Virus record (IMG/VR): IMGVR_UViG_3300020041_000069
Coordinates: 1-6,158 of that record
Reading direction: 5' to 3' (one strand)
Length of the DNA stretch: 6,158 nucleotides
Source of the DNA: a virus
Positions within the stretch are counted from its first letter, which is position 1. Each line of letters opens with the position of its first letter. The position numbers were made by a program, and so were the translations under genes. A model generated the notes under the pieces. The model searched no databases. It was given only the letters and a program-made list of their open reading frames with translations, and had not been told where the DNA came from. Positions 1-6,158 of this stretch are shown here, one piece after another.

Positions 1-121
1 AAGTCGGAAAAATTATTCAATTTCTCCTCAAATGACGACGGGAGACCCTTGTGCCTCCGACAAATTCGCCATCTCTATTGTAAATTTCCTTCTCTTCGTC
101 ATAACCAACGGAAACAGGCTG
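1..121. repeat. Terminal redundancy, copy 1 (overlap from assembling a circular molecule)
   Basis: By direct reading, bases 1-121 (aagtcggaaaaattattcaattt...ggaaacaggctg) are identical to 6038-6158. Confidence 0.95.
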
Positions 122-1593: not shown

Positions 1594-1670
1594 AAAAATA
1601 CGCGGCCTCTCCTGCAGTCGTTACCAATAACCTTTCAGCAATTCACGAACTCTTGCAGAAGGGGTCCGCG
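1594..1670 (-). terminator. Candidate long imperfect hairpin plus T-run (possible terminator after the VP4-VP1-ORF98 block)
   Basis: On the coding strand, CGCGGACCCCTTCTGCA (1670-1654) pairs with TGCAGGAGAGGCCGCG (1616-1601). That gives about 15 pairs with 1 bulge, 1 mismatch and 1 G-U. TATTTTTCTA (1600-1591) follows. The apical loop is large (~35 nt), so this is not a textbook terminator. Confidence 0.3.
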
Positions 1671-3804: not shown

Positions 3805-4875
3805 TTAAATAATTAGTTGAAGTTTATAATGATCCTGCCAGAATTGAAAAACATCCAAATCCAACCAGGTAGGAGGATCGAAATCCGGCATCCTACAAGA
3901 AGAAGCGGCGAAACGCATCATTTGCTTCTGCTCCCACGTATACGTCTCTCTACGGGATACGGAGGAATGGAGATTGAACCGCTCAACGCACAGAGACACA
4001 ATACGCTTAACCAGAGGAGACTTGCTAAAGCGTGCATAAGAATCAGCAGCGGTAATCGAGCGAGAAACTTCGTCTTCAGGTTTAAGATATTTAAGATAGT
4101 ATCGAGGAATCGAGTAGTTATAATTGATACGCTTCTCAAAGTCAAAGTAAGACCACGACGAAGTACGGGCAGAAGGACGAGGCATATAGCCAAGAAAATC
4201 GCCAACGCCAGCAGATACGAATTTTCGCGTATAACGGCGATGTTGGAGGAGGCAAGATAAAGGTGTAGACTTTCCATCTATAACGATATTTTGATTGGAT
4301 ATTTCTGCAGGGTTAAATTGAATTTGCTTAGTAACGTATTTGACGACGTATCGCGCACGTTGATGCGTGCCTTTCGCAAGCCAAACAAAACCAAGGTCAC
4401 GGACAGCTGCCCGAATTTCATTGTACAAACAATCGGTTCCAAAGAGAAAGCCGTGAAAATGAAGGCGAGGCGCCGACCCTGTCTCTGGATGGGTGCCAAA
4501 CTCCTGGAAAAATGCATGCTTAAAGGAGTGGCCGATCTTATGGCGCACTCGCTCATTCCATCGTCTAATAAACGCAGAAGGATTTCGCAGTGCTTCATCG
4601 TAATATTTAGGTGATATGGTTATTGTAATAAAAATAGCCTGTCGAGATTCGGCCTTACAACGAGCAAGCTCGCGCTCGAGACGGACGAACCAATCATTGC
4701 GTTGGCGGCGTAAGCACTCCTCGCACCTTCCGCAAGGGACCATGAGCCACTGGCGAGCGATGTCCCAGGGGCGAAGAGCCAAGGCGGACTTCGCAACATC
4801 AGAACCATTACGACAGGGATTCTTCTTGTCGAAATAGCGACGATTGCGTATCCATATGGGCGACAAACAAGGCAT
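3805..4875 (-). CDS. VP4: Replication initiator VP4 (rolling-circle HUH endonuclease, phiX A-protein superfamily), 356 aa from the first ATG
   Basis: RCR motif I is AIFITITI. Motif II (HUH) is RLHFHGFLF, with H-F-H encoded by 4461-4453 (cattttcac on the coding strand). Motif III is the double tyrosine YVVKYVTK (4350-4327). There is also a Cys cluster, PCGRCEECLRR. The ORF-track start at 4896 is a TTG. The first ATG (4875-4873) gives MPCLSPIWIRN... and overlaps the upstream ORF stop as TAATG. Confidence 0.93.
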   Translation of the reverse strand: MPCLSPIWIRNRRYFDKKNPCRNGSDVAKSALALRPWDIARQWLMVPCGRCEECLRRQRNDWFVRLERELARCKAESRQAIFITITISPKYYDEALRNPSAFIRRWNERVRHKIGHSFKHAFFQEFGTHPETGSAPRLHFHGFLFGTDCLYNEIRAAVRDLGFVWLAKGTHQRARYVVKYVTKQIQFNPAEISNQNIVIDGKSTPLSCLLQHRRYTRKFVSAGVGDFLGYMPRPSARTSSWSYFDFEKRINYNYSIPRYYLKYLKPEDEVSRSITAADSYARFSKSPLVKRIVSLCVERFNLHSSVSRRETYTWEQKQMMRFAASSCRMPDFDPPTWLDLDVFQFWQDHYKLQLII

Positions 4876-5075
4876 TATAGGAGACTTCTGAGGCAATCGA
4901 ACTTGATAGCAGGATGATCAAGACGACAGCGAATAAGATAATCACTAGCAGGTTCTTCATCGGAAAACCAAGCGATAACAACTCGTTTCTTGCCGCGATA
5001 TGCTCCAATGGAAAAGCGGTAGGGAACACTGTCAATCACAGGAGAAAAACGAGGACGAAAATCAAACTTATCCAT
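4875..5075 (-). CDS. Small hypothetical protein (66 aa), translationally coupled to VP4
   Basis: The first in-frame ATG is at 5075-5073 (MDKFDFRPRF...). Its TAA stop (4877-4875) shares one base with the VP4 ATG (TAATG). The ORF-track start at 5198 is a GTG, and that extension runs through GC-rich hairpins, so the short form is preferred. No recognisable motif. Confidence 0.45.
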   Translation of the reverse strand: MDKFDFRPRFSPVIDSVPYRFSIGAYRGKKRVVIAWFSDEEPASDYLIRCRLDHPAIKFDCLRSLL

Positions 5076-5094: not shown

Positions 5095-5123
5095 GCGCTT
5101 CGAAAGACGGTACTTTCGAGCGC
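5095..5123. other. Hairpin (11 bp with one bulge, 6-nt loop)
   Basis: gcgcTtcgaaag (5095-5106), loop acggta, ctttcgagcgc (5113-5123). It lies just upstream of the 66-aa ORF on the coding strand. Confidence 0.5.
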
Positions 5124-5149
5124 GAAAACTATTTCGTTACGCCGCCCGA

Positions 5150-5183
5150 CGGCCTCAACGGCCGGGACGCTTCGCGTCTTCGG
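5150..5183. other. Cluster of GC-rich hairpins
   Basis: cggcc (5150-5154) / ggccg (5160-5164) with loop tcaac. gacgc (5166-5170) / gcgtc (5174-5178) with loop ttc, extendable by ccg (5162-5164) / cgg (5181-5183) across a small internal loop. This segment is visibly more GC-rich than the rest of the genome. Confidence 0.5.
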
Positions 5184-5198
5184 GCTCCATGGCTCCAC
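5183..5198. repeat. Tandem direct repeat ggctccaN x2
   Basis: ggctccat (5183-5190) is followed directly by ggctccac (5191-5198). It sits next to the hairpin cluster in non-coding sequence. Confidence 0.5.
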
Positions 5199-5211
5199 TC
5201 ATATTCTATAT

Positions 5212-5227
5212 ACCGGATAAATCCGGT
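5212..5227. other. Perfect inverted repeat accggat-aa-atccggt
   Basis: The 7-nt arms at 5212-5218 and 5221-5227 are exact reverse complements. On the coding strand an AT-rich TATATAGAATAT tract follows. Confidence 0.5.
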
Positions 5228-5239
5228 GAGGCTACGAGT

Positions 5240-5272
5240 AAAAAACCCCAGGGAGAGAAATTCTCCCGGGGG
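5240..5272 (-). terminator. Rho-independent terminator on the coding strand
   Basis: The coding strand reads CCCC-C-GGGAGA-ATTTC-TCTCCC-T-GGGG (5272-5246), a 10-bp GC-rich stem with one mismatch and a 5-nt loop. It is followed immediately by TTTTTT (5245-5240). It starts 45 nt downstream of the stop of the 5318-5641 ORF. There is no T-run on the other strand, so it is unidirectional. Confidence 0.75.
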
Positions 5273-5317
5273 CCTCGAAGTTAGAGAACTCTTCCACCGA
5301 GAGGACGAGTTACTACT

Positions 5318-5641
5318 TTACTTCCTCTTCCTTTCTTCTTTCGGCGCGCTTTCATCGCAATCAAGGTTAAAATCAAACATGAGGACAAGAGTATTGTCGA
5401 AAAAATCAACTCGGAAATGAGGTAAACTACCACAGGTGGTAACAAGATCGAAGACTTCCGAATGATCGACATAGAGCGAATCGCTAATGGACGAACTCTG
5501 CAAAAAACGCGCGATAGGGGTATCTTTAATGGCGCTGAAGGGGAGGGTTTCGAATTGATTATCCTTAAGGTAACCTACCTGAACGAAATCAATTTTAAGA
5601 GCCGGGTTAACTCGACGAATAACAACATGAATCTGCGTCAT
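5318..5641 (-). CDS. Hypothetical protein (107 aa), second gene of the accessory cassette
   Basis: The first ATG is at 5641-5639, 11 nt after the upstream stop; the ORF-track start at 5692 is a TTG. It begins MTQIHVVIRRVNPALKIDF... and ends in an acidic then basic tail, DCDESAPKEERKRK. The TAA is at 5320-5318. No motif I can assign. Confidence 0.55.
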   Translation of the reverse strand: MTQIHVVIRRVNPALKIDFVQVGYLKDNQFETLPFSAIKDTPIARFLQSSSISDSLYVDHSEVFDLVTTCGSLPHFRVDFFDNTLVLMFDFNLDCDESAPKEERKRK

Positions 5642-5652
5642 AACAATGTAAT

Positions 5653-5973
5653 TTAAAGTTGCGATCGGAATCTGAGGTAAAAATGCTCCCAAGCGGCGGA
5701 ATGCTTTCTCCAGAAATCATAGCCCTCAGGCGTCGAATCGAACAAGAAAGCGGTGGCAATGAGGTGGGCGGGGCCTGAGCTTGGATAGCAAAGAGATCGC
5801 CGAATATGAGCGCGCAAACGGTCACGGAAACCACCGTAGGGCGAAACGACGACATCGTAGTTCTTCATGAAGGCGGAGAATATTCCTTGGCGGACGAGCC
5901 ACTCGGTAAAAGCGTAATCGAGGACGTCGACAATTAAATCACCAGCCTTAAAATAATTACTTTCCCTTTTCAT
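5653..5973 (-). CDS. Hypothetical protein (106 aa), first gene of the accessory cassette
   Basis: ATG at 5973-5971 (MKRESNYFKAGDL...), 25 nt downstream of a Bacteroides-type -7 promoter box. The C-terminus carries an aromatic-rich motif, FLFDSTPEGYDFWRKHSAAWEHFY. The ORF-track start at 6057 is a TTG, and that extension would read through the promoter-like AT-rich tract. Confidence 0.55.
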   Translation of the reverse strand: MKRESNYFKAGDLIVDVLDYAFTEWLVRQGIFSAFMKNYDVVVSPYGGFRDRLRAHIRRSLCYPSSGPAHLIATAFLFDSTPEGYDFWRKHSAAWEHFYLRFRSQL

Positions 5974-5998
5974 AGTATTGTGGTTATTGGTTACGATG

Positions 5999-6030
5999 CA
6001 AAGATACAACAAAACAAAATAAACGGCAAA
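5999..6030 (-). promoter_or_regulatory. Bacteroidota-type promoter (-33 TTTG / -7 TAnnTTTG)
   Basis: The coding strand has TTTG (6030-6027), a 20-nt spacer, then TATCTTTG (6006-5999). This matches the published Bacteroides consensus TTTG-N19-21-TAnnTTTG. It is intergenic, 24 nt after the VP2 stop (circular coordinates), and 25 nt upstream of the ATG at 5973. By eye I found three other TAnnTTTG matches on this strand (2580-2587, 3525-3532, 5063-5070). None of them has a correctly spaced TTTG. Confidence 0.5.
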
Positions 6031-6037
6031 GTCCAAA

Positions 6038-6158
6038 AAGTCGGAAAAATTATTCAATTTCTCCTCAAATGACGACGGGAGACCCTTGTGCCTCCGACAA
6101 ATTCGCCATCTCTATTGTAAATTTCCTTCTCTTCGTCATAACCAACGGAAACAGGCTG
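6038..6158. repeat. Terminal redundancy, copy 2 (duplicates 1-121; not extra biological sequence)
   Basis: Same 121-nt string as 1-121. It runs to the very end of the window, as expected for a circular contig that was not trimmed. Confidence 0.95.

What the first reader, a model, noticed from the sequence alone, without database searches (positions are those of the whole stretch)
5240..6030. Self-contained promoter / two unknown ORFs / terminator cassette inside a microvirus genome (moron-like module)
The stretch between VP2 and the Rep block reads as an independent transcription unit. It has a consensus Bacteroides-type promoter (TTTG-N20-TATCTTTG, 6030-5999). It has two tightly spaced ORFs of 106 and 107 aa (5973-5653 and 5641-5318, 11-nt gap). 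It ends in a strong GC hairpin plus T6 intrinsic terminator (5272-5240). Neither protein shows the hallmarks of a canonical microvirus protein (capsid, pilot, Rep, acidic scaffold or small basic DNA-binding protein). The first carries a distinctive aromatic motif, FLFDSTPEGYDFWRKHSAAWEHF. The second ends in an acidic-then-basic tail. Microviridae genomes are normally regarded as minimal, so about 13% of the genome in an autonomously expressed two-gene unit suggests an accessory function. Possibilities include host takeover, anti-defence, superinfection exclusion, a toxin/antitoxin-like pair, or a function expressed from a prophage or episomal state. Which of these applies is pure inference.
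Basis: partly seen in the sequence, partly recalled or inferred. Interest (0 to 1): 0.75.

Follow-up and report, generated by a model that had tools for sequence, protein, structure and literature searches.

The report
Promoter-proximal operon of a gut microvirus
The flagged stretch is real, but it is the conserved first operon of this small gut phage rather than an optional add-on: it also hides a tiny overlapping DNA-packaging-type gene, and only its first gene looks like exchangeable accessory cargo.

Summary
All of them are conserved in about 80 related 6-kb microviruses.

The moron-like reading does not hold for the unit as a whole.
- ORF B occurs at this locus in 84 of 84 relatives, and ORF A in 83 of 84.
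- The promoter is the only canonical promoter in these genomes. It stays behind VP2 in relatives that lack ORF A.
The hairpin with T6 lies 8 nt after its stop, as T_J does in phiX174 (recalled).

ORF B has no detectable relative outside microviruses.

ORF A is different. It is the fastest-diverging gene in the genome, it is absent from some distant relatives, and it belongs (hhalign 99.7%) to an uncharacterised small-protein family also found in large tailed phages. An accessory role for ORF A alone remains plausible.

I also found covarying long-range complementarity between the ORF A leader and a distant intergenic site.

The parts
5999..6030 (-). Bacteroidota sigma-ABfr-type promoter: -33 TTTG (6030-6027), 20-nt spacer, -7 TATCTTTG (6006-5999).
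   Evidence: It is the only full match in the window. The -7 box is conserved about 26 nt before the ORF A ATG in nearly all relatives. In 64 complete genomes the full motif occurs 33 times here and 2 times elsewhere. It is also present behind VP2 in a relative that lacks ORF A. The consensus is taken from PMC6847099. Promoter activity is inferred, not shown.
5974..5994 (-). Predicted 21-nt mRNA leader, GTAACCAATAACCACAATACT. The transcription start is inferred at G5994, 5 nt after the -7 box. There is no Shine-Dalgarno sequence, and A is at position -3.
   Evidence: GTAAACCAATAACC is nearly invariant in relatives. The position of the -7 element relative to +1 comes from PMC6847099. The leader is complementary to 1633-1617.
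5653..5973 (-). ORF A, 106 aa, pI 9.2, predicted five-helix protein. It belongs to a widespread uncharacterised small phage-protein family (PHROGs 16354, 10949, 25460, 20568) with the motif aF.W..TPEG..FW......W..y.
   Evidence: Structure model: pLDDT 72. The profile search found 151 representatives, including multi-repeat proteins. hhalign against distant members: 99.7% probability, E 7e-27. PHROG matches of distant members. Members lie on 70-140 kb Caudoviricetes contigs. dN/dS 0.225. It is the most divergent gene in the genome, with median pairwise identity 48%. It is absent from bajarodmic virus 22 and Tortoise microvirus 102.
5318..5641 (-). ORF B, 107 aa, pI 5.2. Residues 1-95 form a compact alpha/beta domain and residues 96-107 a disordered tail. 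It is microvirus-specific and its function is unknown.
   Evidence: 84 of 84 relatives. The two searches found 612 and 1015 homologues; all listed hits lie on short contigs (about 12 kb at most, mostly about 6 kb or fragments). pLDDT 84.7. The only fold matches are uncharacterised Microviridae proteins in BFVD. No PDB, Pfam, PHROG or NCBIfam match. dN/dS 0.22.
5281..5355 (-). Overprinted 24-aa gene MKARRKKKGRGSKVVTRPLGGRVL (pI 12, 10 K/R). It lies in the +1 frame over the last 13 codons of ORF B and runs 37 nt past the ORF B stop. It is a candidate J/VP8-type DNA-binding (packaging) protein.
   Evidence: Present in 72 of 72 relatives: 24 aa in 71 of them, 25 aa in bajarodmic virus 678. All 71 sequences checked for it start with ATG. 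69 distinct DNA sequences collapse to 30 peptides. Variation falls on third codon positions of this frame, 0.26 against 0.02-0.05. Recognisable versions are present in distant relatives. Composition and a hydrophobic C-terminus match the VP8/J criteria (PMC11281519; PMC9865509). Compare phiMH2K ...MRGGIRL and Chp2 ...MRGGIRF. No significant sequence homology can be shown.
5240..5272 (-). GC-rich hairpin (CCCCGGGAGA / TCTCCCTGGGG) followed by T6, 8 nt after the stop of the J-like gene. It is a candidate intrinsic terminator or attenuator.
   Evidence: A hairpin plus at least 4 T occurs in 53 of 72 relatives, with differing stems and dG mostly -17 to -26 kcal/mol. The T-run is missing, or a larger structure replaces the hairpin, in about a quarter of relatives. 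There is no such element in bajarodmic virus 678 or Dipodfec virus UA23Rod_963. Termination is inferred.
5095..5230 (-). Cluster of four further hairpins: CCGGATTTATCCGG at 5226-5213, two GC hairpins at about 5176-5143, and GCGCTCGAAAG-TACCGT-CTTTCGAAGCGC at 5123-5095.
   Evidence: The ssDNA fold of 5282-5076 has z = -6.1. CCGG/CCGA hairpins and the AAGTACC motif are conserved. A similar AAAGTACCGTCTTT hairpin lies at another position in Dulem virus 225. A role in replication or complementary-strand origin is speculation.
4875..5075 (-). ORF C, 66 aa, pI 9.1. Its TAA stop overlaps the Rep ATG at 4875-4873 (TAATG), so the two genes are probably translationally coupled.
   Evidence: Found in 73 relatives with an ATG start in 72. 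TAATG or TGATG overlap is seen in most. dN/dS 0.156, with third-position variability. Detected in 8 of the 9 distant GenBank relatives scanned, not in MG945564. No family match.
1617..1633 (-). 'Anti-leader' AGGTTATTGGTAACGAC in the intergenic region between the 98-aa and 63-aa ORFs. It is complementary to the ORF A leader (5997-5981) on the same strand.
   Evidence: ACCAATAACC occurs exactly twice in the window, in inverted orientation, where 0.01 matches are expected. Conserved in 55-64 of 64 relatives. The duplex is -19.9 kcal/mol and 1 of 300 shuffles is as good. Partner sequences change together in distant relatives.

Best explanation
Region 6030-5240 is the promoter-proximal segment of the only recognisable transcription unit of a roughly 6.0-kb gut microvirus. 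The signals are those of a Bacteroidota host.

A conserved sigma-ABfr-type promoter lies just downstream of the pilot-protein gene VP2. It starts an mRNA at about G5994 with a 21-nt leader that lacks a Shine-Dalgarno sequence. Three proteins are translated from this mRNA:
- ORF A.
- ORF B.
- A 24-aa Lys/Arg-rich peptide read from an internal ATG in the +1 frame of the ORF B tail. By size, charge, hydrophobic C-terminus and invariance it is the counterpart of the J/VP8 DNA-binding protein that accompanies the genome into the capsid.

The GC hairpin with T6 lies 8 nt after that gene. I propose it works as a partial terminator. Short transcripts would give high doses of A, B and J. Read-through transcripts would carry on into ORF C, Rep, VP1, the 98-aa ORF, the 63-aa ORF and VP2. 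This is the same logic as promoter P_D, genes D/E/J and terminator T_J in phiX174.

The unit is therefore an integral, clade-wide part of the phage and not an optional cassette. ORF B is a core protein specific to this group of microviruses, probably a non-structural replication or assembly factor. ORF A is a rapidly diverging, recombining and occasionally absent member of a small helical-domain family shared with tailed phages. It is the one component that may be accessory, for example in host interaction.

Shown: presence, synteny, purifying selection, motif conservation, coding of the overprinted frame, and family membership of ORF A. Inferred: promoter activity, termination and attenuation, the DNA-packaging role of the peptide, and the roles of A and B.
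For: Synteny and selection:
- All eight ORFs are collinear in 84 genomes. B is present in 84/84 and A in 83/84.
- dN/dS is 0.16-0.23.

Promoter:
- The motif is conserved in position and is the only full match genome-wide.
- It sits before ORF B in a relative that lacks ORF A.
- There is no excess of sigma-70-type promoters.
- A B. fragilis microvirus has been isolated from a neighbouring lineage (PMC13064476).

J-like gene:
- Present in 72/72 relatives, with third-codon-position variation in its own frame, pI 12 and C-terminus ...GGRVL.
- These features fit the criteria in PMC11281519 and PMC9865509.
- The phiMH2K gene order VP2-VP3-VP5-J-VP4 parallels VP2-A-B-J-C-Rep here.

Terminator:
- It lies directly after the J-like stop and is conserved in 53/72 relatives.

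Not a moron:
- No compositional anomaly.
- No cellular copies in the genomes scanned, and homologues only on short contigs, mostly about 6 kb.

ORF A family. Its high divergence and recombination.
Against: - There are no transcript or protein data, so promoter use, the start site, termination efficiency and translation of the 24-aa ORF are all untested.
- If this is the only promoter and the hairpin terminates, the capsid gene VP1 would be transcribed less than A and B. That is odd unless termination is weak or a non-canonical promoter exists.
- About a quarter of close relatives have the hairpin without a T-run, and distant relatives have no hairpin at all. The hairpin is also the first of five in a strongly structured ssDNA region, so it may serve DNA rather than RNA functions.
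- The J-like assignment rests on composition, position and a short C-terminal resemblance. No significant homology can be shown for a 24-aa peptide.
- The functions of A and B remain unknown.
- The host is inferred only from promoter and translation signals and from a related isolate.
Confidence: 0.6

Rival explanations
1. One reading: an autonomously expressed accessory (moron-like) two-gene cassette serving host takeover, anti-defence, superinfection exclusion or a toxin/antitoxin-like function, and dispensable for virion production.
For: - A promoter and a terminator bracket the genes.
- A and B have no match to canonical microvirus proteins.
- A and B, together with the pilot protein VP2, are the fastest-diverging genes. 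That pattern is typical of host-interface genes.
- The ORF A family is shared with tailed phages, where it sits among small genes of unknown function.
- ORF A is absent from two more distant relatives.
Against: - B and the overprinted J-like gene are universal in the clade, and A is nearly so.
- The promoter is the sole canonical one in the genome and persists without A.
- Distant relatives have no terminator.
- Composition is not atypical.
- A and B occur independently of each other, which argues against a toxin/antitoxin pair.
- No prophage or cellular copies were found.
- For ORF A alone I put an accessory or host-interaction role at roughly 0.35.
Confidence: 0.12
2. The hairpin with T6 and the four hairpins after it are mainly ssDNA cis-elements of the viral strand rather than a transcription terminator. 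They could be a complementary-strand origin or priming site, a Rep origin, or a packaging signal. In that case the whole genome is one read-through transcript.
For: - 5282-5076 folds as ssDNA with z = -6.1 into five hairpins.
- Hairpins are conserved with changed stems even where the T-run is lost.
- The hairpin at 5123-5095 with the AAAGTACCGTCTTT motif recurs at a different genomic position in Dulem virus 225.
- From my own knowledge, not tested here: microvirus intergenic hairpins are used for priming complementary-strand synthesis in phiX174 and G4.
Against: - In 53 of 72 relatives the first hairpin is followed at once by a run of 4-10 T. DNA functions would not need this.
- It sits 8 nt after a stop codon.
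- This reading is not exclusive of the best explanation. One hairpin could serve both roles.
Confidence: 0.25
3. ORF A and/or ORF B are assembly (scaffolding-type) proteins needed in capsid-like amounts. That would explain why they sit with the J-like gene directly behind the promoter, as the external scaffold gene D does in phiX174.
For: - The order promoter, A, B, J, terminator mirrors P_D, D/E, J, T_J.
- They occupy the slot between VP2 and the J-like gene that VP3 (scaffold) and VP5 occupy in phiMH2K.
- No other ORF of the genome matches a known scaffold family. The acidic 98-aa ORF gave no PHROG match either.
Against: - No similarity to VP3, phiX174 B or phiX174 D.
- B is a compact alpha/beta domain, not an extended helical scaffold.
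- The ORF A family also occurs in tailed phages and as tandem repeats, which does not fit a T=1 scaffold.
- A is missing from some relatives.
- The acidic 98-aa ORF after VP1 is the more scaffold-like candidate, with pI 4.3.
Confidence: 0.15

Closest known systems
phiX174 late transcription unit: P_D, genes D, (E), J, then terminator T_J, with read-through into F, G and H (own knowledge; the record NC_001422 was read)
   Same: A promoter is followed by small genes, one of them overprinted. The unit ends with a tiny basic DNA-binding protein gene and a hairpin terminator immediately after it. Downstream genes on the same strand are presumably reached by read-through.
   Different: - The promoter is of the Bacteroidota type.
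- The proteins upstream of J are unrelated to D and E.
- The genes after the terminator are ORF C, Rep and the capsid gene, not the capsid gene directly.
- The J-like gene overlaps the preceding gene.
- Nothing here has been tested experimentally.
Microvirus DNA-binding proteins: phiX174 J and gokushovirus VP8/ORF8 (SpV4, Chp2, phiMH2K, phiEC6098)
   Same: - Very small, Lys/Arg-rich N-terminal part and hydrophobic C-terminal residues (PMC11281519).
- The C-terminus ...PLGGRVL resembles ...MRGGIRL and ...MRGGIRF.
- It lies shortly upstream of Rep, as in phiMH2K and Chp2.
   Different: - At 24 aa it is shorter than the 38-44 aa of the known proteins.
- Its first 13 codons are overprinted on another gene.
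- No statistically supported homology.
- Presence in the virion is not shown.
Morons of lambdoid and other tailed phages: an autonomous promoter-gene-terminator insertion between core genes (own knowledge)
   Same: A promoter, small genes of unknown function and a terminator lie between two core genes. ORF A belongs to a family scattered among unrelated phages.
   Different: - The unit is fixed in the clade and not sporadic.
- It has no compositional signature.
- The promoter is the main or only one of the genome.
- The unit contains a probable structural or packaging gene.
- No lysogenic state is known.
PHROG families 16354, 10949, 25460 and 20568: small phage proteins of unknown function with the motif F.W..TPEG..FW
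   Same: ORF A aligns over 89 columns with these proteins (hhalign 99.7%). It shares both the N-terminal F..FL...g.y..F..N segment and the C-terminal aromatic motif.
   Different: Most members sampled lie on contigs of 13-140 kb from tailed phages, or occur as proteins with 2-5 repeats. Here the domain is a single-copy gene of a 6-kb ssDNA phage. No member has a known function.

Membership tests
Moron (autonomous accessory transcription unit in a phage genome) | Own promoter and terminator flanking the cargo | tested here: inconclusive
   Both motifs are present. However, the promoter is the only canonical one in the genome and persists in a relative without ORF A. The terminator is missing from about a quarter of close relatives and from distant ones.
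Moron (autonomous accessory transcription unit in a phage genome) | Sporadic presence or absence among otherwise collinear relatives | tested here: not met
   B is in 84/84 relatives, the J-like gene in 72/72 and A in 83/84 of the clade. Only A is missing, and only from two more distant relatives.
Moron (autonomous accessory transcription unit in a phage genome) | Base composition differing from the surrounding genome | tested here: not met
   GC is 0.43-0.49 across 5250-6000, against 0.38-0.57 elsewhere in the genome. There is no break.
Moron (autonomous accessory transcription unit in a phage genome) | Dispensable for lytic growth, with a benefit to host or lysogen | not testable with these tools
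   This needs genetics in a host. No prophage copies were found in 185,579 genomes.
Microvirus J/VP8 DNA-binding protein | Very small protein with an N-terminal part rich in Arg/Lys | tested here: met
   24 aa, 10 K/R, 9 of them in the first 13 residues, pI 12.0. The criterion is taken from PMC11281519 and PMC9865509.
Microvirus J/VP8 DNA-binding protein | Hydrophobic C-terminal residues that anchor in the capsid; only the last four residues are structurally conserved | tested here: inconclusive
   The C-terminus ...RPLGGRVL is invariant or conservatively substituted. It resembles ...RGGIRL and ...RGGIRF. No structure or complex was modelled.
Microvirus J/VP8 DNA-binding protein | Detectable sequence homology to J or ORF8 | tested here: not met
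   There was no PHROG match for the peptide at E up to 10. The peptide is too short for a meaningful test, and it was not itself compared by profile with J or ORF8. The hhalign runs covered A, B, C and the 98-aa and 63-aa ORFs only.
Microvirus J/VP8 DNA-binding protein | Present in virions bound to ssDNA | not testable with these tools
   This needs virion proteomics or cryo-EM.
Bacteroidota sigma-ABfr promoter | -7 element TAnnTTTG (no G at -10/-9) and a -33 TTTG about 19-21 nt upstream | tested here: met
   TATCTTTG with TTTG 20 nt upstream. Conserved in position. Consensus from PMC6847099. Activity was not tested.
Intrinsic (rho-independent) terminator | GC-rich hairpin immediately followed by a U-tract, downstream of a stop codon | tested here: met
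   The scan reports a 6-pair core stem (GGGAGA/TCTCCC); the extended fold adds four outer C-G pairs across one bulged T. The hairpin segment scored -17.9 kcal/mol and T6 follows it. It lies 8 nt after the stop of the J-like gene. 53 of 72 relatives have a hairpin followed by T4-10. Termination itself was not tested.
PHROG 16354/10949-type small phage protein family (TPEG-FW motif) | Profile-level homology over the whole domain, including the aF.W..TPEG..FW......W..y motif | tested here: met
   hhalign A1 against A4: 99.7%, E 7e-27, 89 columns. Distant members hit those PHROGs at E of 1e-14 to 1e-6. ORF A alone hits phrog_10949 only weakly, at E 0.004.
Canonical small microvirus proteins (phiX174 B, C, D, E, K; gokushovirus VP3, VP5, orfN) | Sequence or fold similarity of ORF A or ORF B | tested here: not met
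   hhalign probabilities were 7% or less. No Pfam or PHROG match. No PDB fold or sequence match. Sensitivity is limited because the templates were single sequences.
Toxin-antitoxin pair | Two genes that co-occur obligately, with relatives in bacterial chromosomes or plasmids and matches to known TA families | tested here: not met
   A occurs without B in tailed phages, and B without A in L003 and L092. There are no Pfam or NCBIfam matches. ORF B is absent from 185,579 genomes.

The most novel reading that the evidence does not exclude
Two linked claims.

First, ORF A is a horizontally exchanged accessory domain shared between ssDNA microviruses and large tailed phages. It evolves fast because it acts on the host, for example in takeover or counter-defence.

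Second, expression of ORF A is gated by a long-range base-pairing switch. The very 5' end of the operon mRNA (5997-5981) pairs with an 'anti-leader' 4.36 kb downstream (1633-1617). Pairing would occur only in read-through transcripts, or alternatively in the ssDNA genome. The short terminated mRNA and the full-length mRNA would then translate the first genes differently.
Probability: 0.2. Interest if true: 0.65.

Novelty: new variant of a known kind. Interest (0 to 1): 0.4.

Why it matters
Gut microviruses are abundant, yet almost all of their small genes are unannotated. This case yields four points.

1. This large clade, related to the first isolated Bacteroides microvirus, appears to run on a single host-type promoter with a J-proximal attenuator. 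That is a layout like phiX174's, reached with unrelated proteins.

2. The clade's missing DNA-binding protein is probably a 24-aa gene overprinted on another gene. The GenBank relatives inspected here do not annotate it.

3. One gene, ORF A, links microviruses to a protein family of tailed phages. [quoted passage not shown]

4. A covarying long-range complementarity between the leader and a distant intergenic site may be a new regulatory or replication element in ssDNA phages.

None of this makes the unit a moron, so the original high score is not justified. The details do give concrete, testable annotations for hundreds of genomes.

Tried and rejected
- PHROGs, Pfam and NCBIfam scans of A, B, C and the 98-aa and 63-aa ORFs gave nothing useful. 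The 24-aa peptide was scanned against PHROGs only.
- Foldseek of both models against the PDB gave no match below E 0.1. The best was GFRP at TM 0.3-0.4, which I rejected as chance.
- Profile searches of PDB sequences gave nothing.
- hhalign of five family profiles against phiX174, phiMH2K, Chp2 and phiHBP1 small proteins gave nothing above 7% probability.
- A third homology search with a broader ORF B profile only returned more of the same microvirus proteins.
- tblastn with a two-repeat member of the ORF A family against GenBank phages found a single weak hit.
- The search for related loci with the divergent ORF A family alignment failed because no stretch was conserved enough.
- Two scans of 185,579 bacterial and archaeal genomes, with ORF B and with Rep, found no prophage or host clue.
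- RNAalifold on a MAFFT alignment of the terminator region failed because indels put the stems out of register. I therefore rely on per-sequence folds.
- I considered TAAGTTTG at 5070-5063 as a second promoter. I rejected it because it encodes the conserved D-K-F of ORF C and has no -33 element.
- Rfam found no match.
- The sigma-70 promoter scan showed no enrichment.
Full report
WHAT THE WINDOW IS

The window is a complete circular microvirus genome. Its first and last 121 nt are identical, so the genome is 6037 nt.

All genes lie on the minus strand. In order they are:
- ORF A (5973-5653).
- ORF B (5641-5318).
- A conserved 66-aa ORF C (5075-4875).
- Rep/VP4, running to 3805.
- Capsid VP1 (3801-2011).
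- An acidic 98-aa ORF (1999-1703).
- A 63-aa ORF with a signal-peptide-like segment (1472-1281).
- Pilot protein VP2 (1279-17).

VP1, VP2 and Rep are identified by PHROG and Pfam matches. The nearest GenBank genomes are faecal Microviridae from pig, musk deer, civet, rodents, tortoise and lemur, at 67-76% nucleotide identity. [quoted passage not shown]

CHECKING THE OBSERVATION

Promoter. TTTG-N20-TATCTTTG (6030-5999) is the only match in the window to the Bacteroidota consensus (consensus from PMC6847099). One match in one genome is not significant, since 30 of 200 shuffles also have one. Comparison is decisive.
- I fetched 80 related viral contigs and several GenBank genomes.
- The -7 box lies about 26 nt before the ORF A ATG in nearly all of them. 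It is followed by an almost invariant GTAAACCAATAACC.
- In 64 complete genomes the full two-part motif occurs 33 times at this spot and only twice anywhere else.
- Sigma-70-type promoters are not enriched. No gene start examined has a Shine-Dalgarno sequence. Both fit a Bacteroidota host.

ORFs. Both are real genes. Their median dN/dS is 0.225 and 0.22, and variation concentrates at third codon positions.

Hairpin. The hairpin with T6 (5272-5240) scored -17.9 kcal/mol for the hairpin segment and the 96-nt stretch around it folds better than all 200 shuffles. A hairpin followed directly by 4-10 T is present in 53 of 72 relatives, with stems that differ in sequence.

Immediately after the ORF B stop there is a roughly 36-nt block that is more conserved than ORF B itself. 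It turned out to be coding.

An ATG at 5355, in the +1 frame of ORF B, opens a 24-aa ORF that ends at 5281: MKARRKKKGRGSKVVTRPLGGRVL.
- It is present in 72 of 72 relatives, 24 aa long in 71 of them and 25 aa in bajarodmic virus 678. All 71 sequences checked for it start with ATG.
- 69 distinct DNA sequences collapse to 30 peptides that differ only by K/R, V/I and A/S/T exchanges.
- Variability falls on the third positions of this frame, 0.26 against 0.02-0.05. This holds both in the 13 codons that overlap ORF B and in the 11 that do not.
- Recognisable versions exist in distant relatives, for example MSRKKKKSRGNGTRVVTRPVGGKVL in bajarodmic virus 678.

The peptide has pI 12. It has a Lys/Arg-rich N-terminal half and a hydrophobic C-terminus, the two features used to recognise J/VP8 DNA-binding proteins of microviruses (PMC11281519; PMC9865509). 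Its end...GGRVL, recalls ...RGGIRL and ...RGGIRF of phiMH2K and Chp2.

The 'acidic-then-basic tail' of ORF B is thus the shadow of this gene in the other frame. In the structure model that tail is disordered.

The hairpin with T6 starts 8 nt after the stop of this gene. From my own knowledge, terminator T_J sits at the same relative position in phiX174.

A second overlooked gene is ORF C. It has 66 aa, dN/dS 0.156 and an ATG start in 72 of 73 relatives. Its stop overlaps the Rep ATG as TAATG.

IS THE UNIT A MORON?

The unit is fixed, not sporadic.
- tblastn finds ORF B in 84 of 84 genomes and ORF A in 82 of 84.
- One of the two apparent ORF A absences is a divergent ORF A.
- Homologues of both lie only on short contigs, mostly about 6 kb or fragments, the longest listed being 11,980 nt.
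- Two scans of 185,579 bacterial and archaeal genomes found neither ORF B nor Rep, so there is no sign of a prophage state.
- Composition is unremarkable.

The promoter is positional rather than tied to the cargo. In bajarodmic virus 22, which lacks ORF A, a full promoter motif sits between VP2 and ORF B.

The terminator is not universal. In bajarodmic virus 678 and Dipodfec virus UA23Rod_963 the J-like stop overlaps the ORF C start (TGATG, TAATG). There, A, B, J, C and Rep form one uninterrupted block.

Together with the probable packaging gene inside it, this makes the unit the promoter-proximal part of the core genome.

The gene order VP2-A-B-J-C-Rep parallels VP2-VP3-VP5-J-VP4 of phiMH2K. 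Even so, neither A nor B shows any similarity to VP3, VP5 or the phiX174 proteins.

WHAT THE TWO PROTEINS ARE

ORF B.
- The model is confident (pLDDT 84.7) and shows a compact alpha/beta domain.
- It has no PDB neighbour.
- Its only fold matches are uncharacterised Microviridae proteins, including ones at 22-24% identity.
- Profile HMMs detect it in some more distant GenBank relatives. In the others an ORF of similar size occupies the same slot.
- It is therefore a fast-evolving core protein specific to this group of microviruses. Its function is unknown.

ORF A.
- A profile search of 1.84 billion representative proteins gave 151 hits.
- Beyond the microviral ones, these are 80-120-aa proteins and proteins with 2-5 tandem repeats. 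All share F..FL...g.y..F..N and aF.W..TPEG..FW......W..y.
- Profile-profile comparison gives 99.7% probability, E 7e-27, over 89 columns.
- These proteins hit PHROGs 16354, 10949, 25460 and 20568, all of unknown function. None hits Pfam or NCBIfam.
- Sampled members lie on contigs of 13-140 kb. One is named Caudoviricetes by NCBI and sits in a run of small genes next to PNKP-, HD- and RecA-like genes.

Within the clade ORF A is the most divergent gene. Its median pairwise identity is 48%, against 63% for B, 56% for VP2 and 85-87% for Rep and the 98-aa and 63-aa ORFs. Gene-to-gene identity correlations are low throughout, with rho at most 0.45. That indicates frequent recombination.

ORF A is absent from bajarodmic virus 22 and Tortoise microvirus 102. 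It is present at 82-111 aa in other relatives.

ORF A is thus the one component for which an accessory, host-directed role is plausible. [quoted passage not shown]

HOW IT MOST LIKELY WORKS

The following steps are inferred.

Host RNA polymerase starts at about G5994, 5 nt after the -7 box (PMC6847099).

A, B and the J-like peptide are translated from the first roughly 700 nt.

The hairpin with T6 stops a fraction of transcripts.

The rest continue into C, Rep, VP1 and the remaining genes, because no other canonical promoter exists.

A weakness of this model is that the capsid gene would then be transcribed less than A and B. Either termination is weak or non-canonical promoters exist.

The hairpin is also the first of five in a region that folds very strongly as ssDNA (z = -6.1). 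It could therefore also, or instead, serve complementary-strand synthesis or replication.

AN UNEXPECTED EXTRA

The predicted leader is AUCGUAACCAAUAACCA (5997-5981). It is complementary to AGGUUAUUGGUAACGAC (1633-1617), which lies on the same strand in the intergenic region between the 98-aa and 63-aa ORFs.
- The 10-mer ACCAATAACC occurs exactly twice in the window, in inverted orientation, where 0.01 matches are expected.
- Both copies are among the most conserved non-coding words of the clade.
- The duplex is -19.9 kcal/mol, and 1 of 300 shuffles is as good.

In distant relatives with different leaders the intergenic site differs in a matching way.
- Bajarodmic virus 678: ...ACACACUUU pairs with AGAGUGUGU...
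- MG945272: ACCAAAAAC pairs with GUUUUUGGU.
- Bajarodmic virus 22: the leader precedes ORF B, and it still pairs.
- Seven of nine lineages reach p of 0.05 or less.
- In all five genomes scanned, the best genome-wide partner of the leader lies in that intergenic region.

Single changes in the leader within the clade are C to T, which keeps G-U pairs.

This points to base pairing, either in a read-through mRNA or in the ssDNA genome. Two inverted copies of a co-evolving protein-binding site are not excluded. The function is unknown.

VERDICT

The moron interpretation is not supported for the unit, but it remains open for ORF A alone.

The unit is best described as a new variant of a known kind: a phiX174-style promoter / small genes / J / attenuator operon, built from unrelated proteins in a microvirus with Bacteroidota-type signals.

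Interest is moderate. The value lies in the overprinted J-like gene, the link between ORF A and tailed phages, and the leader/anti-leader complementarity.

Noticed in passing
window 5997-5981 and 1633-1617 (both minus strand): The ORF A leader and a site in the intergenic region between the 98-aa and 63-aa ORFs are complementary, with a duplex of -19.9 kcal/mol. ACCAATAACC occurs only at these two places, in inverted orientation. Both sites are highly conserved, and their sequences change together in distant relatives. This could be long-range RNA pairing, ssDNA pairing, or a pair of protein-binding sites. The function is unknown.
   Followed up: partly
window 5075-4875 (minus): A conserved 66-aa ORF C (MDKFDFRPRF...) has dN/dS 0.156. 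Its TAA stop overlaps the Rep ATG at 4875-4873, so Rep probably starts at that ATG (356 aa) and not at the TTG at 4896. ORF C is detected in 8 of the 9 distant GenBank relatives scanned and has no family match.
   Followed up: partly
window 5230-5095 (minus): Four more hairpins follow the terminator-like one. The region 5282-5076 folds as ssDNA with z = -6.1. The hairpin at 5123-5095 has a conserved AAAGTACCGTCTTT core, which recurs at a different genomic position in Dulem virus 225 (L093). It is a candidate replication or complementary-strand origin.
   Followed up: partly
window 1472-1281 (minus): The 63-aa ORF has a basic N-terminus, a hydrophobic stretch and a lipobox-like LTSC. This suggests a small lipoprotein, possibly for lysis or exclusion. 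It is one of the most conserved genes of the clade, with median identity 87%.
   Followed up: no
window 1703-1473 (minus): This 230-nt non-coding gap holds several near-invariant blocks besides the anti-leader: TACGTGCGCGGACCCCT (1676-1660) and a block around 1599-1581 whose window form is TATTTTTCTATCGTTCTTTA. Most relatives extend it 5' as CGCGCATTTTTCTATCG.... No promoter motif was found in the gap.
   Followed up: no
whole window and loci L004-L083: The genomes are strongly mosaic. VP1 identity to the window is bimodal, at about 68% or about 88%. VP2 ranges from 43% to 90%. Pairwise-identity correlations between genes are all 0.45 or lower. This implies frequent recombination among co-occurring microviruses, most of them from one set of IMG samples (3300020026-3300020047).
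   Followed up: partly
window 1-121 and 6038-6158: The two ends of the window are an exact 121-nt direct repeat, an assembly signature of a circular genome. The true length is 6037 nt. The coding sequence for the C-terminal part of VP2 therefore appears twice.
   Followed up: yes
loci L001-L003, L092-L097 (GenBank relatives): None of the GenBank records inspected annotates the 24-aa overprinted gene. Several also omit or mis-start ORF C. MG945455, for example, lists only 7 features.
   Followed up: partly
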